A DNA stretch of 36,286 nt from a virus (taxonomy: Duplodnaviria > Heunggongvirae > Uroviricota > Caudoviricetes). The notes beneath the pieces are model-generated. The model saw only the letters and a program-made list of their open reading frames with translations, was not told the origin of the DNA and did no database searches. Below are positions 935-35,233 of the stretch, in pieces. The position numbers and the translations under genes are program-made. The stretch lies in IMG/VR virus record IMGVR_UViG_2778261315_000002. One strand, written 5' to 3'. The stretch's first letter is position 1. Each line of letters opens with the position of its first letter.

Positions 935-2620
935 GTGAATATAAACGTCGCCGAATTGTTAAATGGGAATTACATTCTGTTATTATTTGTGGTCCTCGCG
1001 CTTGGGCTATGTCTCGGGAAATTACGACTTGGTTCGATCCAACTGGGTAATTCCATTGGCGTTTTAGTCGTATCGCTGTTATTAGGCCAACAACATTTCA
1101 GCATTAACACCGACGCGCTTAATCTTGGCTTTATGCTGTTTATTTTCTGCGTCGGGGTCGAAGCCGGACCGAACTTTTTTTCCATTTTTTTTCGCGATGG
1201 GAAAAATTACCTAATGTTAGCACTGGTGATGGTTGGCAGTGCGCTGGTGATCGCCTTAGGGTTAGGTAAGCTGTTTGGCTGGGATATTGGCCTGACGGCC
1301 GGTATGTTAGCTGGCTCTATGACGTCGACACCGGTTCTGGTCGGTGCTGGCGATACACTGCGTCATTCCGGCATGGAAAGCAGGCAGCTCTCACTGGCAC
1401 TGGATAATCTGAGCCTCGGGTATGCCTTAACCTATTTAATCGGTCTGGTGAGTTTGATTGTTGGTGCGCGTTACTTGCCGAAATTGCAGCATCAGGACTT
1501 ACAGACCAGCGCCCAGCAAATCGCCCGCGAACGTGGCCTGGACACTGATGCCAACCGTAAGGTTTATTTACCGGTGATCCGCGCCTACCGCGTCGGCCCG
1601 GAGCTGGTGGCCTGGACCGACGGCAAAAATCTGCGTGAACTGGGTATTTATCGACAAACTGGCTGCTACATTGAACGTATTCGACGTAACGGGATTCTGG
1701 CGAATCCAGACGGTGATGCTGTGCTACAAATGGGAGATGAAATAGCGTTGGTAGGCTATCCCGACGCCCACGCACGACTCGATCCCAGCTTCCGTAACGG
1801 CAAAGAAGTTTTCGATCGTGACCTTCTCGACATGCGTATCGTCACTGAAGAAGTGGTCGTTAAAAACCATAACGCCGTGGGCAAACGTCTCGCACAACTG
1901 AAGTTGACCGATCACGGTTGCTTCCTTAACCGCGTCATTCGTAGCCAGATTGAGATGCCGATAGATGACAACGTCGTGCTTAACAAAGGTGACGTTTTAC
2001 AAGTCAGCGGCGATGCCCGTCGCGTAAAAACCATCGCCGATCGCATCGGCTTTATCTCGATTCACAGCCAGGTCACTGACTTGCTGGCATTCTGCGCCTT
2101 CTTTGTTATTGGGCTGATGATCGGGATGATCACCTTCCAGTTCAGCACATTCAGTTTCGGCATGGGGAACGCTGCCGGGTTGTTATTCGCCGGAATTATG
2201 CTGGGATTTATGCGCGCTAACCACCCGACCTTCGGTTACATTCCGCAGGGTGCATTAAGCATGGTGAAAGAGTTCGGCTTAATGGTGTTTATGGCAGGCG
2301 TTGGTCTGAGCGCCGGTAGCGGTATTAATAACGGCCTGGGCGCGATTGGCGGTCAGATGTTGATTGCCGGATTGATTGTCAGTCTTGTGCCAGTGGTTAT
2401 CTGTTTCTTGTTCGGTGCTTATGTATTGCGAATGAACCGCGCACTGTTGTTCGGCGCAATGATGGGCGCACGCACCTGCGCGCCGGCAATGGAGATCATC
2501 AGTGATACAGCTCGCAGTAACATCCCGGCGCTGGGCTATGCGGGCACCTATGCAATCGCCAACGTCCTGCTGACGCTGGCAGGGACAATCATCGTCATGG
2601 TATGGCCAGGATTAGGATAA
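935..2620 (+). CDS. ybjL: Putative transporter YbjL (AAE-type permease with cytoplasmic regulatory domains)
   Basis: 561-aa ORF with GTG start ([24 protein letters not shown]...); two membrane halves flank a soluble central region; matches E. coli YbjL from memory. Confidence 0.85.
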
Positions 2621-16005: not shown

Positions 16006-16821
16006 TCAGAGAGATGCTGTTTTGTTGAAGTAATCCTTCAATAACTCCATCTTAAAGATGACCTGGAGTTTACAACCGGGAAATGAATCATTTACAGTTA
16101 CAGTCATCCCCAGGAACTCAGACTGAACCTTTATCAAATCATTAGGTATTTTGTGAAGAATATCTCTAACTTCTTTCTCTACCGTTGTGGGAACCAAGTC
16201 AAAACTAACAATAAACTCACTTGACGAATTATGCTGAACTTTAGACTTTATTTCCTTTAAAGCTTTTTTAGACAAGTTGAGAATATCAAAAACTTTCTCA
16301 AGATTATCAAATAAAACATACCTGCGTTCAAAATCAACAACCTTAGCTGCTAATTCATTAAAATCAGTTCTGAGCCGCCCCCTAGCACCCACAGCTGATT
16401 GCAAAGACCTAAATGCAAACTCCAATTTAGATGCCATATTGGCCTCAATTGCATTCAGATTACAAATAGGTTGAGGCAACTCTTTAAAAACCATGCCCGA
16501 ATGGCAGAAAGGAAGTGTAGGAATATCTCCCAAACCAGCATTCTGATTTAGGGTATTTCTTATCCAGACAGCCCCTAATTCAAAGCTAATCCAACTTCTT
16601 TTCACAGAATTAGGACTGATTAAATATATAGCCGCAATACAATTAACAAGGCCATCTTCTATTACTTTTAGGAAATTTTGCCCAGCCTTAATCGTTTCTC
16701 CATCTGAAGATACAAAAACGCTGACAAATCCAGCAAACTCATCTTCGATTGCATCTTTAATGATTTTTGCCAATTCTTTTTCTTCAGTAATATGAGATAA
16801 AAAAATCAACTTCTCAGACAT
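16006..16821 (-). CDS. Cargo protein with N-terminal TIR-like domain and uncharacterised ~160-aa C-terminal domain (candidate anti-phage defence gene)
   Basis: 271 aa from the ATG at 16821 (AGAGAG Shine-Dalgarno; the track ORF starts at a TTG at 16839). N-terminus KLIFLSH...VSVFVSSDGETIKAGQNFL...IAAIYLISPNSVKRSWISFELG fits the TIR pattern. Region is markedly AT-rich and interrupts the S-V junction, which is contiguous in P2. Confidence 0.55.
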   Translation of the reverse strand: MSEKLIFLSHITEEKELAKIIKDAIEDEFAGFVSVFVSSDGETIKAGQNFLKVIEDGLVNCIAAIYLISPNSVKRSWISFELGAVWIRNTLNQNAGLGDIPTLPFCHSGMVFKELPQPICNLNAIEANMASKLEFAFRSLQSAVGARGRLRTDFNELAAKVVDFERRYVLFDNLEKVFDILNLSKKALKEIKSKVQHNSSSEFIVSFDLVPTTVEKEVRDILHKIPNDLIKVQSEFLGMTVTVNDSFPGCKLQVIFKMELLKDYFNKTASL

Positions 16822-16937
16822 CACATACTCTCTAACCAATTGATAGATTTACAATTTAGCAAGAAAGAAAATGTGATACTAAGAAGAAGATCATAAAATC
16901 AGTATCTTCCCCAAAGAATCTTTCTCTAATCAGCACC

Positions 16938-24651: not shown

Positions 24652-25676
24652 TGGGAAAGAGTAAAAAGAACCGCGCTGCGTCGACGAACCAGATCCAGCA
24701 TAAAAGCCAGACTTCAGCCGAAGCATTCAGCTTTGGTGATCCCATTCCTGTACTGGACCGCCGCGAACTGCTGGACTATGTGGAATGCGTACAGACGGAT
24801 CGCTGGTATGAGCCACCCGTAAGTTTTGACGGACTGGCGCGCACCTTCCGCGCTGCCGTGCATCACAGTTCCCCGATTGCAGTAAAGTGCAACATTCTGA
24901 CCAGTACCTATATCCCTCATCCGCTGCTCAGCCAACAGGCTTTTTCGCGTTTTGTGCAGGACTATCTGGTATTTGGTAACGCCTACCTGGAGAAACGCAC
25001 GAACCGATTCGGTGAAGTTATCGCCCTTGAGCCTGCGCTGGCAAAATACACCCGACGTGGGTTAGACCTGGATACCTACTGGTTTGTGCAATACGGTATG
25101 ACAACCCAGCCGTATCAGTTCACGAAAGGCAGCATTTTTCATCTGATGGAACCGGACATCAACCAGGAGATCTACGGCCTGCCAGGCTATCTTTCTGCCA
25201 TTCCATCCGCCCTGCTCAACGAGTCTGCCACGCTGTTCCGCCGTAAGTATTACATCAACGGCAGCCATGCAGGCTTCATCATGTACATGACCGACGCCGC
25301 GCAGAATCAGGAGGATGTGAACAATCTCCGCAACGCGATGAAAAGCGCCAAAGGTCCAGGCAACTTCCGCAACCTGTTTATGTACTCGCCTAATGGCAAA
25401 AAGGACGGCCTTCAGATCATCCCTTTGTCAGAAGTTGCGGCGAAGGATGAGTTTCTGAATATCAAAAATGTCAGCCGCGATGACATGATGGCAGCACATC
25501 GCGTTCCGCCACAGATGATGGGGATAATGCCTAATAATGTTGGGGGTTTTGGGGATGTGGAGAAGGCAGCAAATGTGTTTGTGCGAAATGAGTTATTACC
25601 CCTGCAAAAGCGTTGTTTAGAATTAAATGAATGGAGTAAAAAAGAACTCATACGGTTTGAGAGATACAGTTTATAA
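24651..25676 (+). CDS. Q: Portal protein Q
   Basis: 341 aa from the ATG at 24651, overlapping the P stop (TGATG); P2 gpQ size and position. The last ~25 codons lie in AT-rich sequence. Confidence 0.85.
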   Translation: MGKSKKNRAASTNQIQHKSQTSAEAFSFGDPIPVLDRRELLDYVECVQTDRWYEPPVSFDGLARTFRAAVHHSSPIAVKCNILTSTYIPHPLLSQQAFSRFVQDYLVFGNAYLEKRTNRFGEVIALEPALAKYTRRGLDLDTYWFVQYGMTTQPYQFTKGSIFHLMEPDINQEIYGLPGYLSAIPSALLNESATLFRRKYYINGSHAGFIMYMTDAAQNQEDVNNLRNAMKSAKGPGNFRNLFMYSPNGKKDGLQIIPLSEVAAKDEFLNIKNVSRDDMMAAHRVPPQMMGIMPNNVGGFGDVEKAANVFVRNELLPLQKRCLELNEWSKKELIRFERYSL

Positions 25677-25695
25677 AATCCAAAAAAACATAAAA

Positions 25696-25715
25696 ATGGC
25701 CGCTTAAACGGCCAT
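25696..25715 (-). terminator. Intrinsic terminator of the cargo operon
   Basis: Hairpin atggccg-cttaaa-cggccat; on the minus strand it is followed by TTTTTATGTTTTTTT, directly after the stop of the membrane-protein gene. Confidence 0.55.
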
Positions 25716-25720
25716 CCTTA

Positions 25721-26404
25721 TTAATTTGAAGAATCTTTTTTGAAGGTATCCAAATACCCTCTCAAATCAAAATCTTTATTACCCCTAAATTTTTCAACAT
25801 CTTTCTTGTCTGCATCTCTTTGTTCTCTAATCTTCTTGTTTAGTTTTTCAATCAAAGATTGTCTTTCGGCCTCTATTTCTTTTATTTTTTCAAAATGGAG
25901 TTTCGCCTTTCGTGCTTCTTCAGTCTTTACAATTATTTCATAACAAACACACAAAAGAAAACAAACCGTGGAAACGGTCATCCCTGCATCCACAACTATG
26001 AAGTAACCAATATCAACATTTTCTTTTATCTTATCTAAAGGCACAATCAAACATCCAAGAACCATAAAAAGCCCCACCACAAGATAAATAAAATTAATAG
26101 AGTTACGATAACTCAATTTAAAATATTCATCTTTTTGAGCTTCAAATAATTCCACCACATTACTTGGAGCCTTACTGTTTAACTCAATATCTTTAATCTT
26201 ATCCTGATAATCCACAAATCTTTTTACCAGCAAACCAATTAAAATAGCACCAATTAAAGATAATGCTTTAGATATAAGAGAACCAATTTCTAACAATATA
26301 CCAGTCTGATTGTAAATCCCATAAAAAACAGAAGCGAAAAGTCCCCCTATCAAGATAGATAAGCTCAACTGTATAATAAAACGCTCTATTCTTTTATTAA
26401 TCAT
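25721..26404 (-). CDS. Cargo operon gene 2: small integral membrane protein (4 predicted TM helices, Lys/Glu-rich coiled-coil tail); candidate defence or abortive-infection effector
   Basis: 227 aa from the ATG at 26404, which overlaps the upstream stop (ATGA); hydrophobic stretches FIIQLSLSILIGGLFASVFYGIY, ILLEIGSLISKALSLIGAILIGLLV, FIYLVVGLFMVLGCLIVPL, GYFIVVDAGMTVSTVCFLLCVCYEIIV; AT-rich. Confidence 0.5.
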   Translation of the reverse strand: MINKRIERFIIQLSLSILIGGLFASVFYGIYNQTGILLEIGSLISKALSLIGAILIGLLVKRFVDYQDKIKDIELNSKAPSNVVELFEAQKDEYFKLSYRNSINFIYLVVGLFMVLGCLIVPLDKIKENVDIGYFIVVDAGMTVSTVCFLLCVCYEIIVKTEEARKAKLHFEKIKEIEAERQSLIEKLNKKIREQRDADKKDVEKFRGNKDFDLRGYLDTFKKDSSN

Positions 26405-27396
26405 GGATTTATCACCCCAGCATCCAACAACCTTAACAACCATTCAACCATTTCATCACAAACACTATCAACAACTGGTAAACCCTTACTATATTCAATG
26501 CTAACATTGTCTTTTATTTGAATCTCATCATTTTTCAAAATCCCTGCACCTTTTAACTCAATAGTCAACATTTCATCCCTGTTATCAATTAGCCCCTCGG
26601 TTATCTTCCGAAGTAAATCTTGCTCATTATCACTGGCTCGATATTTATAACCAATAGAAATATCAATTGTAAGGTGTTCCTTTATTTCTGTATCAGGGGT
26701 ACTGTTTTTACGCAATTCTTCAACACGATGCTCACCAATTAAAGAACGCAATAACTCACTAGCAGCATCGTCAACGCCATTACCATTATATGTCAACGGC
26801 AGTTTTAAACTAACATTTTTAATGTTATTTCTTCTCAAGAATTCATTACTAATGCTTAAATTATTTGCCTGCAAAACAATAAAGTTTTCAACATCTACTC
26901 GTAGATTTTCCTTTAAAATAAAATTAATGTAATTTTCAATGTCTTTTATTCTTATTGCTCTACTTTGTAAAATCACGACATGATTCTTAACAACACCAAT
27001 ATAGGCAAAACTATCCAAATATTCTTTAACATCGCCACCCGCAATTCTGAAAGCCTCATATTCCAATTTCGGATTTTTATATTCCGTAACATCAAATACT
27101 GGAATACTTCCGCCAGGCTCTATGTACACAATTTCTGCAAAGAACATTCCGTTACGTTCAAATGAATTTGACATAACCATATGAGCATGCGTTGCCACAT
27201 CAGGATCAGAGTCCTTCGTTTCTAGAAAATGAACTCTATCTTGAACAGTACGAAACTTATGAGTCACAATCTCAGATAATCTGCTTTGTAAGTCTGATGT
27301 TAAAAGTGCATCTTTTTTAGGAAGCATAACTGCATGTCTGTAATGCAGTGCCTTGATTTTGGTATTGTTAGCAGCCATATAATTTCCAGTTTCCAT
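26401..27396 (-). CDS. Cargo operon gene 1: soluble protein of unknown function (candidate defence sensor or enzyme)
   Basis: 331-aa ORF (alternative ATG 6 codons in); no motif I can assign; AT-rich; translationally coupled to the downstream membrane protein. Confidence 0.5.
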   Translation of the reverse strand: METGNYMAANNTKIKALHYRHAVMLPKKDALLTSDLQSRLSEIVTHKFRTVQDRVHFLETKDSDPDVATHAHMVMSNSFERNGMFFAEIVYIEPGGSIPVFDVTEYKNPKLEYEAFRIAGGDVKEYLDSFAYIGVVKNHVVILQSRAIRIKDIENYINFILKENLRVDVENFIVLQANNLSISNEFLRRNNIKNVSLKLPLTYNGNGVDDAASELLRSLIGEHRVEELRKNSTPDTEIKEHLTIDISIGYKYRASDNEQDLLRKITEGLIDNRDEMLTIELKGAGILKNDEIQIKDNVSIEYSKGLPVVDSVCDEMVEWLLRLLDAGVINP

Positions 27397-27483
27397 TCTA
27401 TATTATGCTTTTTTACATAATACCTGCATAACTCAAAAGCATCTACGATCTTAATCGCACATACTAAAGCCTACCTACGCGCG

Positions 27484-27502
27484 CTCGTATCCCCGCCACG
27501 CC
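27484..27502 (-). other. Candidate cos (cohesive-end) sequence
   Basis: Minus strand reads GGCGTGGCGGGGATACGAG; first 13 nt match the P2/186 cohesive-end sequence as I recall it (GGCG[A/T]GGCGGGGAAAGCA[C/T]), 15 of 19 against the 186 form; lies in a 310-bp non-coding stretch. Confidence 0.35.
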
Positions 27503-27705
27503 TGCCCGCTTTATGTAGTGGTTTTCATGCACCTGCATGATCTACGCAAAAGCCCGCCAGTTCTGGCAGGCCTTAGCAAAAACGATCCTCAAACGATCAT
27601 GCGATCTCATGCGGCATAGACATGCTCCACAGAGCTAACGCCTCGCACAGCTCGTTGTTCAACCTTGCTGACGCCAGAAGCAAGTTCAGACGCCAGCAAC
27701 GTTTC

Positions 27706-27939
27706 TTAATGCAGCCAGCTGTCGTCTTCCCACACCTTCTGCATAATTTTCATCACTTGTTTTCTTTCTTCGTCCAGTTGCAGTCCGGTCAGTTCCACAC
27801 CGTTAGAGCTACCTTTGCGGATACGAATTACCGTTTTGGGATACAGGGGGCGCAGATTGCGGTAAAGCTCGGATTCAAGGGCGTCCAGTGTAGACTGGCT
27901 AACCTTCTGCTCTTTATCGATCATTATTTCAATGCGCAT
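27706..27939 (-). CDS. DinI-family protein
   Basis: 77 aa from the ATG at 27939 (GAGGTGA Shine-Dalgarno): MRIEIMIDKEQKVSQSTLDALESELYRNLRPLYP...WEDDSWLH, colinear with E. coli DinI from memory. Confidence 0.75.
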   Translation of the reverse strand: MRIEIMIDKEQKVSQSTLDALESELYRNLRPLYPKTVIRIRKGSSNGVELTGLQLDEERKQVMKIMQKVWEDDSWLH

Positions 27940-27949
27940 AAAAGTCACC

Positions 27950-28138
27950 TCAGCTGATGACATCCATTGAGCGGTTGTATTCGTGGGTTCTGATTTTTGC
28001 CATGAGTTCATCTGTCAGTTCAGAAACCCACTGCAGGGCCAGCCCCTTCTCTTCATCACTACACTCACTAGCCGCTACAAGCTTAAGAAAAAAATCAATG
28101 CGCTGGAGCTTCAAAGACTCCAAAAAATAGTCCTGCAT
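27950..28138 (-). CDS. Small SOS-regulated protein, first gene of the LexA-controlled operon (possible Tum-type antirepressor)
   Basis: 62 aa, ATG at 28138 with AGGAGG Shine-Dalgarno, 43 bp downstream of a consensus LexA box; function inferred from context only. Confidence 0.4.
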   Translation of the reverse strand: MQDYFLESLKLQRIDFFLKLVAASECSDEEKGLALQWVSELTDELMAKIRTHEYNRSMDVIS

Positions 28139-28180
28139 CTTTCCTCCTATGACACCAAAGCAATACTGTATACATGACCA

Positions 28181-28196
28181 CTGTTTATATTTACAG
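28181..28196. promoter_or_regulatory. LexA (SOS) box
   Basis: CTGTTTATATTTACAG fits the CTGT-N8-ACAG consensus exactly and overlaps the probable -10 region of the minus-strand promoter for the small gene plus dinI-like gene. Confidence 0.7.
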
Positions 28197-28290
28197 TATA
28201 TAATAATCTTACTGATGTAAAACGTTTTTTTATGCTCATCAGCCTGATATGCCTGGTATTATTAAGAGCACGAATTGTTAACCCGCTTAA

Positions 28291-30663
28291 TTAATACAGG
28301 TTTCGCCACTTATCATCTTCCTGCAAACGCTGGTTCCGATAGAAGATACGCAGGCCTGCTCCTGATGGAATACTGCCGCCGCGAAGCAGTAAATCGACCT
28401 CTTTCTCGCTGCCATCAATTCCCCTGGACTTCAGTTCATACACGAGCTGCTGTCGCTGATGATCTGTAATTCGCTGTTTGTAGTCTTTAAGCCGTTTCGG
28501 TTTCACAAGGCGTAACCTTGCTGCCAGTTCCCGGCGCTCTTTTTTGCTCATACTGTGCAGGTAATCGTGCAACTCCTTGTCATCCATGCGAGTGATATCC
28601 GTTCTGGTATCTCCATCAGCTGATTTGTCTTTCCCTTGTTGGTACAAATTTTCAGCAAGGGGACAGTTATTGCCACGAGTCCAAGGGGCGCAAGCGCCCT
28701 GGTCGGCTGCCGCCTCCTGAACGTCAACGGCTTTACGAACCATTTTCCACTTCACTGCATGAGTGCAGATCTTGCCCTCTGCAATGGGTGACCAGATGCC
28801 ATAAATACGAATACCGTGATCGCCATAGGCGGTCGGCTCTTCGTTGATTTCATAAGCGGTTCTGATGAGGTGATATTTACGGGGAACCAGTACGCCGCCC
28901 TGCTTCATGATGTAGGTGGCAAAGCAACCAGCATCAGCTGCAGCCAGAATGGCATCAAGGCGCGGGTTATCCAGTACCGGCGCACCTGCTTTTTTGTCAC
29001 CCTGTTGCCTTGCCGCCTGACCAGCCAGCAATCGCAGTTCACGGTAAGCCTGACGCCCCGGAATGCCAAAGAAGCGGAATTGCTGAACACGATGCAGAGA
29101 CGCCCAGGCATTAACGTATTCAGCGTTATCACGCAGAGATTTACCCGTTTCCTTGCTGATCTCGCCAGCCAGACCACGCCCGTCAATGTTCTTACTGATG
29201 TATTTCGCGATGTAGCTTGTTGGCGTACCTTTGCGCGGGTTAATCAACTCAGACTTAAAGCGCGGCCCAGTGTTATTGCCCAGTTCCTCGCGGTCTTCAC
29301 GGATGGCAAACTTACGCAGTAATGCAGTGATGGCGCGGCGGTCTTTTTTGCGCATAAAACACAACAGGTGCCAGTGAACTGTACCGTCATGATGCGGCTC
29401 AGCCACCCGCACGCCATACCACCGCAATCCGGCTTTGTGCATCGCCTTACGAAATGCAGCAAACATGCCGACCAGATAATCACTGCTTTGTCTTACCGTC
29501 GCATTTGTCCAAGTTGGGTTGGGCCTGCCATTATTTAGCGTGGAATGGAAACGTGACGGACAGGTGATGGTGTAGAAAACGGCGCAGTCACCGCGCATTT
29601 CCGCGATAAGCTCCAGGCCTTTAACACAGGCCATCATCTCATTGCGGCGATGCGCAGGGTTGCTGCTGCTGGCGTTTACCACATCCTCCATGTCCAGCGT
29701 GTCGCCGTCTTCGTTCACCAGTTCATGAGAACGAAAAAACTCCAGCGACTTACGGCGCTGCTCACGTTTATGCATCACGGCTTCATAGCTGACATAGGGA
29801 GATGCTTTTTTGCTGACCAGGCAGACAGCACGCAACTGCTCTTCCCGCCATTCGCAACGCATCTTCCATAATTTCCGGTACCACCAGTCAGCGCACAACA
29901 TACGCGCCAGCGAACCCGGAATGAGTTCATAGGGCACGGGTTTACGGCGGTTTCTTTTCCGGCGGAGTTGCTCAAACGCAGGCGGGATGACATCCAGACG
30001 CAGGGTTTCCGCTGCCACCTTTTCCCATGTCTTGCGGATTTCTTCTGGCTTAACGTCATCGGTGACATACAAATCGCCACAAGCTGCATCAAGGCACATG
30101 CTCATATGCGCAGCTACCAGGGTGGACAGGCGTTTCACCTGATCCTGACTCATTTCAGGCAGGATCAGCAGGCCGTCCAGCCCTTCATGGCTTGCCATAA
30201 AGCGAAAAGAAGTGGATAGCTGACAGTCGCGTACATGCTCCAGCCGTTCCAGACATGGCTTAATCGTCTCACGCAAATAGCGGGAATAAGCCTTTGGCCT
30301 GCCCAGGCTGCTGATGTATTCAATACGTTGCATCAGCGGCTTGCTGATATGGGAAGGCTGGGCATTGACGTCCGCCAGAATGACCATATCTGGATTAAAA
30401 CGCTGCTGCTCATGCGCCAGCTTTGCCCGACTAATGAGCTTATCCTGCTCCATTTCGCGCTGGACAGGATCACGGGATTCATTAAAGAAATAACGCTCCC
30501 AGACCTGATCACTCAGTGCCTCGCGGCGCAGCTGTTCCTGCTCGTTATCGGCAGCGTACAGAGCGATCAGGTTTGAAAGCGCAGAAACTGAAGATTGCTC
30601 TTCTGTCTCTACGTAAGGATTGATTGCTTTTTTCTCAGCATTCCAGGAATAGCTGTAGTTCAT
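28291..30663 (-). CDS. A: Replication initiation endonuclease A (rolling-circle initiator, HUH motif)
   Basis: About 790 aa from the ATG at 30663 (the track ORF extends to a TTG at 30714); HUH-like VHWHLLCF motif and downstream Tyr-containing region (YIAKYISK); P2 gpA position and similarity. Confidence 0.85.
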
Positions 30664-31493
30664 TACGCAATCTCCAGTTCGAGCTGTGAAGGCTGCAAAC
30701 CATTCGACAGCCAATCAGAAACTGAAGGTGGGCGAACAGCTTCAATTGCACCTTTTAAAATTGCGCAACGGTTTTTCAGAATGACAGCTTTCAGCTCCTT
30801 TTCCGTCAGATTGCGCGAATACTCAGCCTCCTGAATAGCCCGCGTCAGCTCAGGATATTTGCTATTAAATTTGGGGACATTGCAGGCAAGATTTGTACTG
30901 TCGGCAGTCGCCAGTGGGTAATTTCCCAACACACGACCGTCAAGCATGCGCAAACCATGAACAGCTGTTTTGAAATTGTGTCGGCAATAAATTGCTTCAA
31001 AAGCGTCCTGCATACGACGATGCCAGTGCGCAGTTCTGATAGCCGCATATTCACCAGACGATCCAAAGCAGACACGAGGCCATTCACGACATAGCTCGAT
31101 AAGCCGATCGATTGACTCGTGCAGATGCCAGACCGGAGTTGCCTTCCCGTAGAACATTTTCGGAACTTCGTTTATCAGGGCATCATTGTCACGTTCACCT
31201 CCGTCCACAACATCAGGAATGACAAAAAAAGCGACCTTAGGATGGTGGTAATAGTTCAGGAGCCATTTATAAAAATCACTCCAGTTAATTTTTAGCCCAC
31301 GCACCCATGCAGAAAATGCGCCGTTATCAATGCCGACGACCTGAGCGTGCTGAATGGACGCCGCAATCTGATCTGGTCGTACATAGGATACGAAAGCGCC
31401 AGCTCCGCTCACCGCAATACGATGAACGTCGCCAGCACTTCCCCAGACAGGCGTCCCATGGAAATGATGAATTCCGTGGTGCATTTCTTTCAC
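30663..31493 (-). CDS. Hypothetical protein between dam and A; possible TIM-barrel transglycosylase-like (TGT/DpdA-like) DNA-modification enzyme, speculative
   Basis: 276-aa ORF overlapping both neighbours (GTGA with the dam stop, TAATG with the A start). Motifs [17 protein letters not shown] and LATADST loosely parallel the three Asp-containing motifs of tRNA-guanine transglycosylases; this is a weak, by-eye resemblance only. Confidence 0.3.
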
Positions 31494-34270: not shown

Positions 34271-34840
34271 ATGAATTTGGAGAAAGGCGGACGAGGCGCT
34301 ATAGAGCGCATGGTAGAAGCTTATGGATTCAAAACTCGACAGGCGTTGTGCGATCATTTAGGAATCTCTAAAAGTACACTCGCCACACGCTACATGCGTG
34401 ACTCATTCCCAGCAGAATGGGTAATCCAGTGCGCCCTTGAAACGGGCACCTCGCTTAATTGGCTCACAACCGGACATGGTTCAAAGCAAACTTCAGGTAA
34501 TACAAATACTATGGAAGTTGCTAAATATGTATTATCTGATGGTGCCTTGCGTGAAGACGGTTTTTATATTTTTGATAAGGGATTTCTACCCTCTACGTTT
34601 AAAAAACCTTTTGTCATCACAGATAACAATTCTGAATTTATTTGTGATAAAGAATTTGATGATATACGTGACGGTAAATGGGTAATAAGTATTGATGGCG
34701 AAATAACAATCCGCGACATTACTCGTTTACCCGGTGGAAGAATCTTCGTTGAAGGTGGAAACAGAGCCTTCGAGTGCAAGATAGAAGATGTTGAAATAAT
34801 TGGGAAAATTATAAGTTTAACAATTAAGTACGTTAGGTAA
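34271..34840 (+). CDS. cI: Immunity repressor CI (186 CI-like; N-terminal HTH)
   Basis: 189 aa from the ATG at 34271 (GGAG Shine-Dalgarno; the track starts at a GTG at 34265); HTH QALCDHLGISKSTLATRYMR; AT-rich C-terminal domain; position between the switch and int. Confidence 0.7.
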   Translation: MNLEKGGRGAIERMVEAYGFKTRQALCDHLGISKSTLATRYMRDSFPAEWVIQCALETGTSLNWLTTGHGSKQTSGNTNTMEVAKYVLSDGALREDGFYIFDKGFLPSTFKKPFVITDNNSEFICDKEFDDIRDGKWVISIDGEITIRDITRLPGGRIFVEGGNRAFECKIEDVEIIGKIISLTIKYVR

Positions 34841-35047: not shown

Positions 35048-35233
35048 ATTTTGCTTTTATATCTGCGCCTAATATAACAATGAGCCGCAGGCTAACCGCA
35101 AAAGTCACATACTCACATAGCAAAAAATAGCCAACTTCATTATGGCTTCAGTGAGATGTATGGTCGCAGGATTTCATACATTGACACTGGTTATACATAC
35201 AGTAAAAATGCTCTCTATTGGAGGGCATTTTTT

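What the first reader, a model, noticed from the sequence alone, without database searches (positions are those of the whole stretch)
27706..28200. SOS-controlled operon (consensus LexA box, small protein, DinI-like gene) in an otherwise P2-like prophage
A perfect CTGT-N8-ACAG LexA box (CTGTTTATATTTACAG, 28181-28196) overlaps the likely promoter of a two-gene minus-strand operon: a 62-aa protein with strong Shine-Dalgarno and a DinI-family protein. In phage 186 the LexA-repressed tum gene encodes an antirepressor whose C-terminal part is DinI-like. Here the equivalent appears as two separate cistrons, which suggests the prophage is SOS-inducible like 186 rather than non-inducible like P2, with the antirepressor and DinI functions split.
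Basis: partly seen in the sequence, partly recalled or inferred. Interest (0 to 1): 0.5.

Follow-up and report, generated by a model that had tools for sequence, protein, structure and literature searches.

The report
LexA-controlled tumA–tumB prophage induction operon
This is the DNA-damage switch of a Fels-2/186-type E. coli prophage: a LexA-repressed promoter drives a 62-aa antirepressor (TumA) and a DinI-like protein (TumB). The same module, one residue different, has already been shown genetically to be needed for induction, so it is real but ordinary.

Summary
A strong LexA box (20-mer 28179-28198) lies on the -10 of a promoter. That promoter drives two minus-strand genes: a 62-aa ORF (27950-28138) and a 77-aa DinI-family gene (27706-27939, not the 101-aa ORF).

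The 62-aa protein is a remote homologue of the N-terminal part of phage 186 Tum. The second protein is 40% identical to the Tum C-terminal part. The prophage carries a 186-type CI/Apl/CII/Fil switch.

None of this is new:
- PSP3 has the same split annotated as tumA/tumB, and the split has been described for Fels-2 and PSP3.
- The window module is about 97-98% identical in DNA to that of Fels-2.
- Its TumA is 61/62 identical to ECHS_RS04495 of prophage DuoHS in E. coli HS. Deleting that gene, or using lexA(Ind-), abolishes mitomycin C induction (Nat Microbiol 2025).
- The module is present in about 20% of complete E. coli genomes.

Two small additions came out of the work. Databases still call TumA "hypothetical". 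Also, phages with an identical TumA carry at least 13 CI types that keep a conserved N-terminal DNA-binding domain but have very different C-terminal domains.

The parts
28216..28221 (-). -35 hexamer TTTACA of the SOS promoter (equivalent of 186 p95)
   Evidence: Read from the sequence. TT(T/C)ACA, a 17-18 nt spacer and TACTGT are conserved in all 10 phages compared although the spacers differ. 186 p95 is annotated the same way. Not found by the consensus scan at its thresholds.
28193..28198 (-). -10 hexamer TACTGT, forming the left arm of the LexA box
   Evidence: Same hexamer and same relation to the LexA site as in the annotated 186 p95 promoter.
28179..28198 (.). LexA box (SOS box), 20-mer TACTGTAAATATAAACAGTG on the minus strand
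   Evidence: Only site in the window within 3 mismatches of the 20-mer consensus; 0 of 100 shuffles gave one. A TACTG-N10-CAGT box lies 38-68 nt before the start codon in all 10 related phages. Identical in Fels-2 and DuoHS.
28164..28183 (.). Second, imperfect LexA-like site (CAGTGGTCATGTATACAGTA). Its right half-site is perfect and its left half has GTG instead of CTG. It overlaps box 1 by 5 nt.
   Evidence: GTG-N10-CAGT(A/T) is kept at this spacing in every phage of the Fels-2-type group (window, Fels-2, 813R9, SopEPhi, MLG42, phi4.1, DuoHS). It is absent from 186, PSP3, ev015 and ESSI-2. Function untested.
28143..28148 (-). Shine-Dalgarno AGGAGG of tumA
   Evidence: Sequence; invariant in the relatives.
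27950..28138 (-). tumA: 62-aa antirepressor, homologue of the N-terminal part of 186 Tum
   Evidence: phrog_698 at 3.6e-38, with PHROG hits shared with the Tum N-terminus. hhalign E 4e-5, residues 4-43 with 4-43. 98% identical to Fels-2 STM2728. 61/62 identical to DuoHS ECHS_RS04495, whose deletion abolishes induction. dN/dS 0.07-0.12. Predicted helical hairpin, pLDDT 89.
27945..27951 (-). Shine-Dalgarno GAGGTGA of tumB, overlapping the tumA stop codon (TGA 27950-27952)
   Evidence: Sequence. The tumA-tumB spacer is 10, 11 or 12 nt in the window, SopEPhi and MLG42. No reading-frame relation is conserved, so these are separate cistrons.
27706..27939 (-). tumB: 77-aa DinI-family protein, homologue of the C-terminal part of 186 Tum
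   Evidence: Pfam DinI 6.6e-23. 40% identical to Tum 71-145. 77% identical to PSP3 TumB. Matches E. coli DinI (PDB 1GHH) over its full length, including the acidic C-terminal W-E-D-D-S-W.
27661..27703 (-). Strong RNA hairpin 2 nt after the tumB stop, without a U-tract
   Evidence: Present in both the MFE and centroid folds. Role unknown; a transcript-end stabiliser or weak terminator is possible.
27548..27571 (-). Terminator-like GC hairpin followed by UUUU; probable end of the operon
   Evidence: Sequence and centroid fold. Below the threshold of the terminator scan, which requires 5 T. An exact copy is present in only 2 of 69 related loci.
34271..34840 (+). cI: 186-type immunity repressor, the inferred target of TumA
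   Evidence: Pfam Phage_CI_repr + Phage_CI_C. 32% identical to 186 CI. PDB 2FJR E 3e-31. 181/189 identical to DuoHS CI. The start is taken from the RefSeq annotation of a 99.9% identical genome.

Best explanation
This is the SOS induction module of a Fels-2/186-type temperate phage (family Peduoviridae) integrated next to ybjL in E. coli.

Proposed mechanism:
1. In the lysogen, host LexA binds the box that covers the -10 hexamer of a promoter just downstream of replication gene A. This keeps a two-gene operon silent.
2. DNA damage activates RecA, LexA cleaves itself, and the operon is transcribed.
3. The first product, TumA (62 aa, predicted helical hairpin), binds the 186-type CI repressor stoichiometrically and reversibly and stops it binding its operators. 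The early lytic promoter then fires and the prophage enters lytic growth.
4. The second product, TumB, is a DinI paralogue. It most likely acts on RecA filaments to tune the strength or duration of the SOS signal and is not itself the inducer.

Status of each step:
- Shown by sequence here: the box, the promoter, the two cistrons, the homologies and the 186-type CI.
- Shown by published genetics in a nearly identical prophage: both tumA and cleavable LexA are required for mitomycin C induction.
- Inferred from 186 Tum biochemistry: direct TumA-CI binding.
- Inferred from comparative data here: contact is with the CI N-terminal DNA-binding domain, and TumB has only a modulatory role.
For: LexA box and promoter.

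Homology of TumA to the Tum N-terminus. Homology of TumB to the Tum C-terminus and to DinI.

Near identity to characterised phages:
- DNA about 97-98% identical to the Fels-2 module; TumA 98.4% identical to the Fels-2 protein.
- 61/62 (TumA), 76/77 (TumB) and 181/189 (CI) identical to DuoHS of E. coli HS, with an identical box and promoter and the same integration site beside ybjL.

Published genetics and literature:
- Deleting tum in SopEPhi (TumA 89% identical) blocks phage transfer (Diard 2017, as cited in PMC8710666).
- PSP3 tumA is annotated 'UV induction of prophage' and tumB as DinI-like.
- Lemire et al. 2011 state that Fels-2 and PSP3 have tum split in two and that the upstream PSP3 gene carries the antirepressor activity (PMC3121763).

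Evidence that TumA is the phage-specific part and TumB the generic part:
- TumB is 77% identical between the window and PSP3, whereas TumA is only 20% identical.
- ESSI-2 and ev015 carry a LexA-boxed tumA homologue with no dinI gene.

CI is of the 186 type and gives no S24 peptidase match above threshold.
Against: - No experiment was done on this particular prophage. Its inducibility is inferred from relatives.
- TumA-CI binding has been shown biochemically only for fused 186 Tum (Shearwin 1998, as cited). That protein is only about 23% identical to TumA in its N-terminal part, and pairwise BLASTP finds no alignment.
- The PSP3 assignment of antirepressor activity to the upstream gene rests on a personal communication.
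- TumB's role is untested. In Gifsy prophages, dinI deletions had no detectable effect on induction.
- The phage record most similar at DNA level in E. coli strain 23CRST001 has an IS element in gene A. Members of this lineage can therefore be defective. Gene A looks intact in the window.
Confidence: 0.9

Rival explanations
1. The DinI-like TumB, not the 62-aa protein, is the inducer. It might act by changing RecA activity toward CI, with the 62-aa ORF as an accessory or regulatory peptide.
For: In 186 the DinI-like half is part of the Tum polypeptide, and shorter Tum products are annotated as modulating induction. TumB is strongly conserved.
Against: Deleting only the 62-aa ORF (start fused to stop) abolishes induction in DuoHS, although a polar or coupling effect on tumB was not excluded there. 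ESSI-2 and ev015 have the LexA-boxed tumA homologue without any dinI gene. TumB hardly varies between phages with different TumA and CI types. The 186-type CI is inactivated by an antirepressor, not by cleavage.
Confidence: 0.04
2. The module is a lysogenic-conversion ('moron') cassette that serves the host. It would supply an extra SOS-regulated DinI to damp RecA, and the prophage itself would be non-inducible or defective.
For: DinI paralogues are common prophage cargo next to LexA boxes. The module is very widespread, in 1083 of 5426 E. coli genomes, and some carriers are degraded.
Against: The module always sits at the same place in the phage backbone, directly after gene A and together with a 186-type CI. 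Genetics in DuoHS and SopEPhi link it to induction. The window prophage has intact cI, apl, cII, A, terminase, portal and capsid ORFs.
Confidence: 0.04
3. TumA and TumB are joined by programmed frameshifting or stop-codon readthrough into one Tum-like protein. On this view the split is only apparent.
For: The tumB reading frame is open upstream as far as 28011 and overlaps the end of tumA. In PSP3 and MLG42 the two genes are in frame and separated only by a stop codon and a few codons.
Against: The spacer is 10, 11 or 12 nt in close relatives, so the frame relation is not conserved. tumB has its own Shine-Dalgarno and ATG. No slippery motif suited to a +1 shift was seen in the overlap. The junction hairpin is neither significant nor conserved. 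TumA-only phages exist.
Confidence: 0.02

Closest known systems
tum (ECHS_RS04495) and the adjacent DinI-like gene of prophage DuoHS, E. coli HS (Ortiz de Ora et al., Nat Microbiol 2025, PMC12055606)
   Same: TumA 61/62, TumB 76/77, CI 181/189 and Apl 73/73 residues identical. The LexA box, -35, -10 and Shine-Dalgarno are identical. Integration is at the same site beside ybjL. The requirement for tum and cleavable LexA in mitomycin C induction has been shown there.
   Different: One residue differs in each of TumA and TumB. A few bases differ between the box and the Shine-Dalgarno. The cargo genes downstream of tumB are unrelated.
Fels-2 STM2728 / STM2726.1 (Salmonella LT2), and the SopEPhi orf10 / orf11 pair
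   Same: Same promoter, box and two-cistron layout. Fels-2 TumA is 98% identical and its DNA about 97-98% identical. SopEPhi TumA is 89% identical. Fels-2 is reported to make lexA null mutations lethal (title of Bunny 2002, in the reference list seen). SopEPhi tum is reported to be needed for transfer.
   Different: The CI repressors are only 42-46% identical to the window CI (N-terminal domain 69-77%, C-terminal domain 26-29%). The cargo downstream differs.
PSP3 tumA / tumB
   Same: Explicitly annotated split tum: a LexA-boxed promoter after gene A, a small upstream antirepressor gene and a DinI-like downstream gene. TumB is 77% identical.
   Different: TumA is only about 20% identical and belongs to the 186-like sequence type. 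In PSP3 the two genes are in frame and separated by one stop codon; here there is a 10-nt spacer and a frame change. PSP3 CI is 286 aa with a duplicated N-terminal domain.
Tum of coliphage 186 (p95 SOS operon)
   Same: LexA box on the -10 TACTGT of a promoter downstream of gene A. An N-terminal antirepressor part is followed by a C-terminal DinI-like part. It acts on a 186-type CI.
   Different: In 186 the two parts form one 146-aa polypeptide with internal starts. The N-terminal part is only remotely similar (no BLASTP alignment). 186 has a single box 38 nt from the start and carries orf97 downstream.
Gifsy-1/2/3 dinI-gfoA/gftA LexA-controlled antirepressor operons
   Same: The logic is the same: a LexA-repressed operon encodes a small antirepressor plus a DinI paralogue, and the repressor is not cleaved.
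   Different: The gene order is reversed (dinI first). The phages are lambdoid with a different repressor family. Sequence relatedness of the antirepressors was not tested here.
Host DinI (E. coli, PDB 1GHH)
   Same: TumB aligns over the full length and keeps the acidic C-terminal helix motif.
   Different: It scores 42 bits against the 111-bit cutoff of the NCBIfam DinI equivalog model, so it is a phage paralogue and not the host protein.

Membership tests
186/Fels-2/PSP3-type LexA-controlled Tum antirepressor module (tumA-tumB form) | LexA box overlapping the promoter of the operon | tested here: met
   The 20-mer at 28179-28198 has 3 mismatches to the consensus and 0 of 100 shuffles matched. 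It covers the -10 TACTGT as at 186 p95. It is conserved in 10 of 10 relatives.
186/Fels-2/PSP3-type LexA-controlled Tum antirepressor module (tumA-tumB form) | Position directly downstream of replication gene A, on the same strand, before the variable region and the portal gene | tested here: met
   Gene A is at 28291-30714 (Pfam Phage_GPA). The order matches 186, PSP3, Fels-2, SopEPhi, MLG42, 813R9 and DuoHS.
186/Fels-2/PSP3-type LexA-controlled Tum antirepressor module (tumA-tumB form) | First product homologous to the N-terminal (antirepressor) part of Tum / TumA | tested here: met
   Shared PHROG hits. hhalign E 4.3e-5, probability 69%, residues 4-43 with 4-43. tblastn with full-length Tum is collinear across tumA-tumB in MLG42. 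Pairwise BLASTP alone finds nothing. 98% identical to Fels-2 and 61/62 to DuoHS tum.
186/Fels-2/PSP3-type LexA-controlled Tum antirepressor module (tumA-tumB form) | Second product (or C-terminal domain) of the DinI family | tested here: met
   Pfam PF06183, 81.3 bits against a cutoff of 24.2. 40% identical to Tum 71-145.
186/Fels-2/PSP3-type LexA-controlled Tum antirepressor module (tumA-tumB form) | Cognate 186-type CI repressor (HTH N-domain plus oligomerising C-domain) in the same phage | tested here: met
   PF07022 + PF16452. PDB 2FJR E 3.3e-31. Apl, CII and Fil are also present.
186/Fels-2/PSP3-type LexA-controlled Tum antirepressor module (tumA-tumB form) | Derepression on DNA damage, and a requirement of the gene for prophage induction | not testable with these tools
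   Shown in the near-identical DuoHS prophage with a tum deletion and with lexA(Ind-). Not shown for this strain.
186/Fels-2/PSP3-type LexA-controlled Tum antirepressor module (tumA-tumB form) | Direct, reversible binding of the antirepressor to CI that blocks operator binding | not testable with these tools
   Known for 186 Tum only (cited). Complex prediction was not possible with the tools available.
DinI family (RecA-filament binding proteins) | DinI fold and sequence, including the acidic C-terminal helix | tested here: met
   Pfam. Full-length alignment to 1GHH with the W-E-D-D-S-W C-terminus. Below the NCBIfam equivalog cutoff (42 against 111 bits), so it is a paralogue. RecA binding itself is not testable here.
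P2-type non-inducible immunity system (C repressor / Cox) | Small P2 C-type repressor and no SOS-controlled antirepressor | tested here: not met
   The repressor is 186-type CI, CII and Fil are present, and a LexA-boxed tum operon is present. The structural genes are P2-family, the regulation is not.
LexA/lambda-CI-type self-cleaving repressors | S24 peptidase domain in the phage repressor | tested here: not met
   Peptidase_S24 scores 16.7 bits, below the 23.3-bit cutoff, with no matched stretch passing on its own.

The most novel reading that the evidence does not exclude
One nearly invariant TumA may serve a whole family of CI repressors by contacting their conserved N-terminal DNA-binding domain.

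Supporting data: 70 of the 80 public viral contigs that encode a TumA 100% identical to the window's had a recognisable CI. These fall into at least 13 CI clusters (below 80% identity). Their N-terminal domains stay 60-98% identical (median 74%), while their C-terminal oligomerisation domains are only 21-99% identical (median 30%).

If true, SOS induction of one such prophage could cross-induce co-resident relatives with different CI C-terminal domains.

A second strand of the same reading: the SOS operon may read through its weak terminator into the hypervariable cargo region that starts right after tumB. That region is co-oriented with the operon in 51 of 69 loci. This would make defence-like cargo damage-inducible, as orf97 is in 186.
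Probability: 0.3. Interest if true: 0.4.

Novelty: already known. Interest (0 to 1): 0.12.

Why it matters
It tells us that this prophage should respond to DNA-damaging agents, including quinolones, mitomycin C and inflammation-derived oxidants. It would do so through LexA and a small antirepressor rather than through repressor cleavage. That mechanism is already established for Fels-2, SopEPhi, PSP3, 186 and DuoHS.

The practical value is in annotation. The 62-aa gene is labelled "hypothetical protein" in more than a thousand complete E. coli genomes. It has no Pfam or NCBIfam family and sits in a PHROG of "unknown function". It can be named TumA with good support.

The comparative observation that one TumA sequence goes with many CI C-terminal types gives a cheap, testable lead on where the antirepressor binds and on possible cross-induction between related prophages.

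Tried and rejected
- Pairwise BLASTP of the 62-aa protein against 186 Tum gave no alignment. Profile methods were needed.
- The sigma-70 consensus scan found no promoter in 27300-28400, because the -10 TACTGT has only 3 of 6 matches. The promoter call therefore rests on comparison with the annotated 186 p95 and on conservation.
- The scan flagged a 'terminator' at the tumA/tumB junction (27944-27961). Folding showed it is neither significant (z -1.15) nor conserved in SopEPhi, phi4.1 or PSP3, so I dropped it as a coupling element.
- TumA has no relative among solved structures by sequence. The AlphaFold model is a two-helix hairpin with pLDDT 89, and Foldseek against the PDB gave only generic helical hairpins, none at E <= 0.001. 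This was uninformative.
- PADLOC gave no defence-system match for the two cargo proteins or for TumA/TumB. Pfam gave nothing above threshold for the cargo.
- The cargo proteins are unrelated to 186 Orf97, Fels-2 STM2726 or PSP3 gp37/gp38.
- Bunny et al. 2002, the primary source for the Fels-2 tum split, is not in the library. I rely on how Lemire et al. 2011 cite it.
- A literature search for 'tumA/tumB' returned only unrelated papers.
- Recoding (frameshift or readthrough) was considered and rejected because the spacer length is not conserved.

Full report
**What is there.** Read on the minus strand, the region downstream of the replication gene A (28291-30714; Pfam Phage_GPA) contains these elements in order:
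- a -35 hexamer TTTACA (28221-28216), a 17-nt spacer and a -10 hexamer TACTGT (28198-28193);
- a LexA box TACTGTAAATATAAACAGTG (28198-28179) whose left arm is that -10 hexamer;
- a Shine-Dalgarno AGGAGG, then a 62-codon ORF (28138-27950);
- a 10-nt spacer in which GAGGTGA overlaps the stop codon;
- a 77-codon DinI-family ORF (27939-27706).

As a bare CTGT-N8-ACAG pattern it is not significant: 0.47 are expected in the window. The full 20-mer is. It is the only site in the window within three mismatches of TACTGTATATATATACAGTA, and none of 100 shuffles produced one. It also falls in a 152-nt intergenic gap at the right distance from a start codon.

**The promoter.** The consensus scan found no promoter, because TACTGT matches TATAAT at only three positions. 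The annotated p95 promoter of phage 186 uses exactly this hexamer inside its LexA site. The arrangement TT(T/C)ACA, 17-18 nt, TACTGT-within-box is kept in all ten phages I compared, while the spacer sequences have diverged.

**What the two genes are.**
- The second protein is a DinI-family member (Pfam 81 bits against a cutoff of 24). It is 40% identical to residues 71-145 of 186 Tum (E 6e-24). It aligns end to end with E. coli DinI, including the acidic C-terminal W-E-D-D-S-W. Its start is the ATG at 27939, not the upstream ATG of the 101-aa ORF; Fels-2, PSP3 and RefSeq annotate it the same way.
- The 62-aa protein has no Pfam or NCBIfam family and gives no BLASTP alignment with Tum. Three other lines link it to the Tum N-terminus. 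It belongs to phrog_698 (3.6e-38) and also hits phrog_8554 and phrog_1993; the N-terminal 61 residues of 186 Tum hit the same three families. A profile of its family aligns with a profile of the Tum N-terminal family at E 4e-5, residues 4-43 with 4-43, sharing a conserved Cys26. In phage MLG42, where the two cistrons happen to be in frame, tblastn with full-length Tum runs collinearly across both.
- The ORF is a real gene: dN/dS is 0.07-0.12 at dS of about 1.
- AlphaFold predicts a two-helix hairpin with pLDDT 89. It has no informative structural neighbour.

**Context.** The prophage has P2-family structural genes, but its regulation is of the 186 type:
- CI with the Phage_CI_repr and Phage_CI_C domains, 32% identical to 186 CI, matching PDB 2FJR at 3e-31;
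- no S24 peptidase match above threshold;
- Apl/Cox, CII and Fil.

So "otherwise P2-like" applies to the virion genes only.

**It is already known.**
- The PSP3 GenBank record annotates this very arrangement as tumA ("similar to 5' end 186 tum; UV induction of prophage") and tumB ("similar to dinI and 3' end of 186 tum").
- Lemire et al. [quoted passage not shown]
- The window module, from promoter through tumB, is about 97-98% identical in DNA to that of Fels-2. Its TumA is 98.4% identical to Fels-2 STM2728.
- The closest characterised relative is prophage DuoHS of E. coli HS. It is integrated beside ybjL, as the window prophage is. It has the same box and promoter, TumA 61/62, TumB 76/77, CI 181/189 and Apl 73/73 identical.
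- Ortiz de Ora et al. [quoted passage not shown] Both abolish mitomycin C-induced lytic replication.
- A tum deletion in SopEPhi (TumA 89% identical) is reported to block phage transfer in the inflamed gut (Diard 2017, as cited in PMC8710666 and PMC9827884).
- The module is present over at least 80% of its length in 1083 of 5426 complete E. coli genomes, mostly at 95-99% identity. It is also present in many Klebsiella, Salmonella and Yersinia phages.

**How it most likely works.** LexA occludes the -10 hexamer. After DNA damage, RecA-stimulated LexA cleavage frees the promoter. TumA then binds CI and prevents operator binding, as shown biochemically for 186 Tum (cited). TumB probably modulates RecA filaments.

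Comparative data support this division of labour:
- TumB is 77% identical between the window and PSP3, while TumA is only 20% identical.
- ESSI-2 and ESSI2_ev015 carry a LexA-boxed tumA homologue with no dinI gene.
- The tumA-tumB spacer is 10, 11 or 12 nt in close relatives, so no frame relation is conserved. Recoding into a single Tum-like protein is therefore unlikely.

**What may go slightly beyond the literature.**
1. The 80 IMG/VR loci retrieved all encode a TumA 100% identical to the window's. In 70 of them I found a CI gene, and these fall into at least 13 clusters below 80% identity. Their N-terminal HTH domains remain 60-98% identical (median 74%), with SKST, RD.FP..W.I.C.LETG and WL..G.G invariant. 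Their C-terminal domains are only 21-99% identical (median 30%). Across the ten reference phages, TumA type tracks the CI N-terminal domain, not the C-terminal domain. This suggests, but does not show, that TumA contacts the DNA-binding domain and could act across prophages that differ in the CI C-terminal domain.
2. All Fels-2-type loci keep a second, imperfect LexA-like site (GTG-N10-CAGTA, 28183-28164) that overlaps the first by 5 nt. The 186, PSP3 and ESSI-2 types lack it.
3. The region right after tumB is hypervariable: 47 distinct first ORFs in 69 loci, 51 of them co-oriented with the operon. Here it holds a rare gene pair with no family assignment. Only a hairpin without a U-tract and a weak terminator-like hairpin lie in between. 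In 186 the SOS transcript partly reads through into orf97.

**Verdict.** The feature is a textbook-type, experimentally characterised induction module, so interest is low. The useful by-products are a confident name (TumA) for a gene that databases still call hypothetical, and a testable lead on where TumA binds CI.

Noticed in passing
window 25721-27396 (minus strand): Two overlapping cargo genes (331 aa at 26401-27396; 240 aa at 25721-26443) fill the variable slot between tumB and the portal gene, co-oriented with the SOS operon. They have no Pfam or PADLOC family; the 331-aa protein matches phrog_3482 (unknown function). The pair occurs in only 4 of 5426 complete E. coli genomes and 1 of 80 related viral contigs. 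It is a candidate accessory or defence system at a known variable position of P2-family phages.
   Followed up: partly
window 16006-16839 (minus strand): A 277-aa TIR-domain protein (Pfam TIR_2, 5e-8) is inserted among the tail and morphogenesis genes. RefSeq annotates it as a TIR protein in a 99.9% identical genome. It is probably an anti-phage or NAD-degrading moron.
   Followed up: no
window 28164-28183: A second, imperfect LexA-like site overlaps the main box by 5 nt. Its right half-site ATACAGTA is perfect, and its left half has GTG in place of CTG. It is conserved in all Fels-2-type relatives and absent from the 186, PSP3 and ESSI-2 types. It could allow tandem LexA binding and later derepression.
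   Followed up: partly
L012-L091 (IMG/VR loci) and window 34271-34840: Phages with an identical TumA carry at least 13 CI clusters. The CI N-terminal HTH domain, including the presumed recognition helix SKST.A.R, is conserved, while the C-terminal oligomerisation domain is nearly unrelated in sequence (median 30% identity). This raises the question of whether immunity specificity in this group lies in the C-terminal domain.
   Followed up: partly
L007 8501-8713 and L008 7971-8192: Phages ESSI2_ev015 and ESSI-2 have a LexA-boxed tumA homologue (41-49% identical, with a longer Gly/Ser-rich tail) but no DinI-like gene after it. The antirepressor therefore occurs on its own.
   Followed up: partly
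L003 1219-2079: PSP3 CI is 286 aa and contains two copies of the N-terminal HTH domain (two W-L-x-x-G motifs). All the other CI proteins compared are about 190-210 aa.
   Followed up: no
window 35187-35202: CTGGTTATACATACAG, one base away from CTGT-N8-ACAG, lies just inside the 5' end of the integrase ORF. It is probably a chance match. Its conservation was not checked.
   Followed up: no
window 935-2620 and L093 23434-25119: The prophage abuts ybjL (aspartate:alanine antiporter family), the same chromosomal site as prophage DuoHS in E. coli HS. A 99.9% identical copy of window 25600-28300 in E. coli 23CRST001 lies in a prophage with an ISVsa5 insertion in gene A.
   Followed up: partly
window 30663-31493 (minus strand): A 276-aa ORF between the Dam methylase gene and gene A has no Pfam family. 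It is annotated as hypothetical in RefSeq and is absent from Fels-2, SopEPhi and DuoHS at this position.
   Followed up: no
window 27661-27703 (minus strand): A very stable 11-bp-plus hairpin starts 2 nt after the tumB stop codon and lacks a U-tract. It is shared with phage 813R9 but not with Fels-2, where similarity ends at the stop codon.
   Followed up: partly
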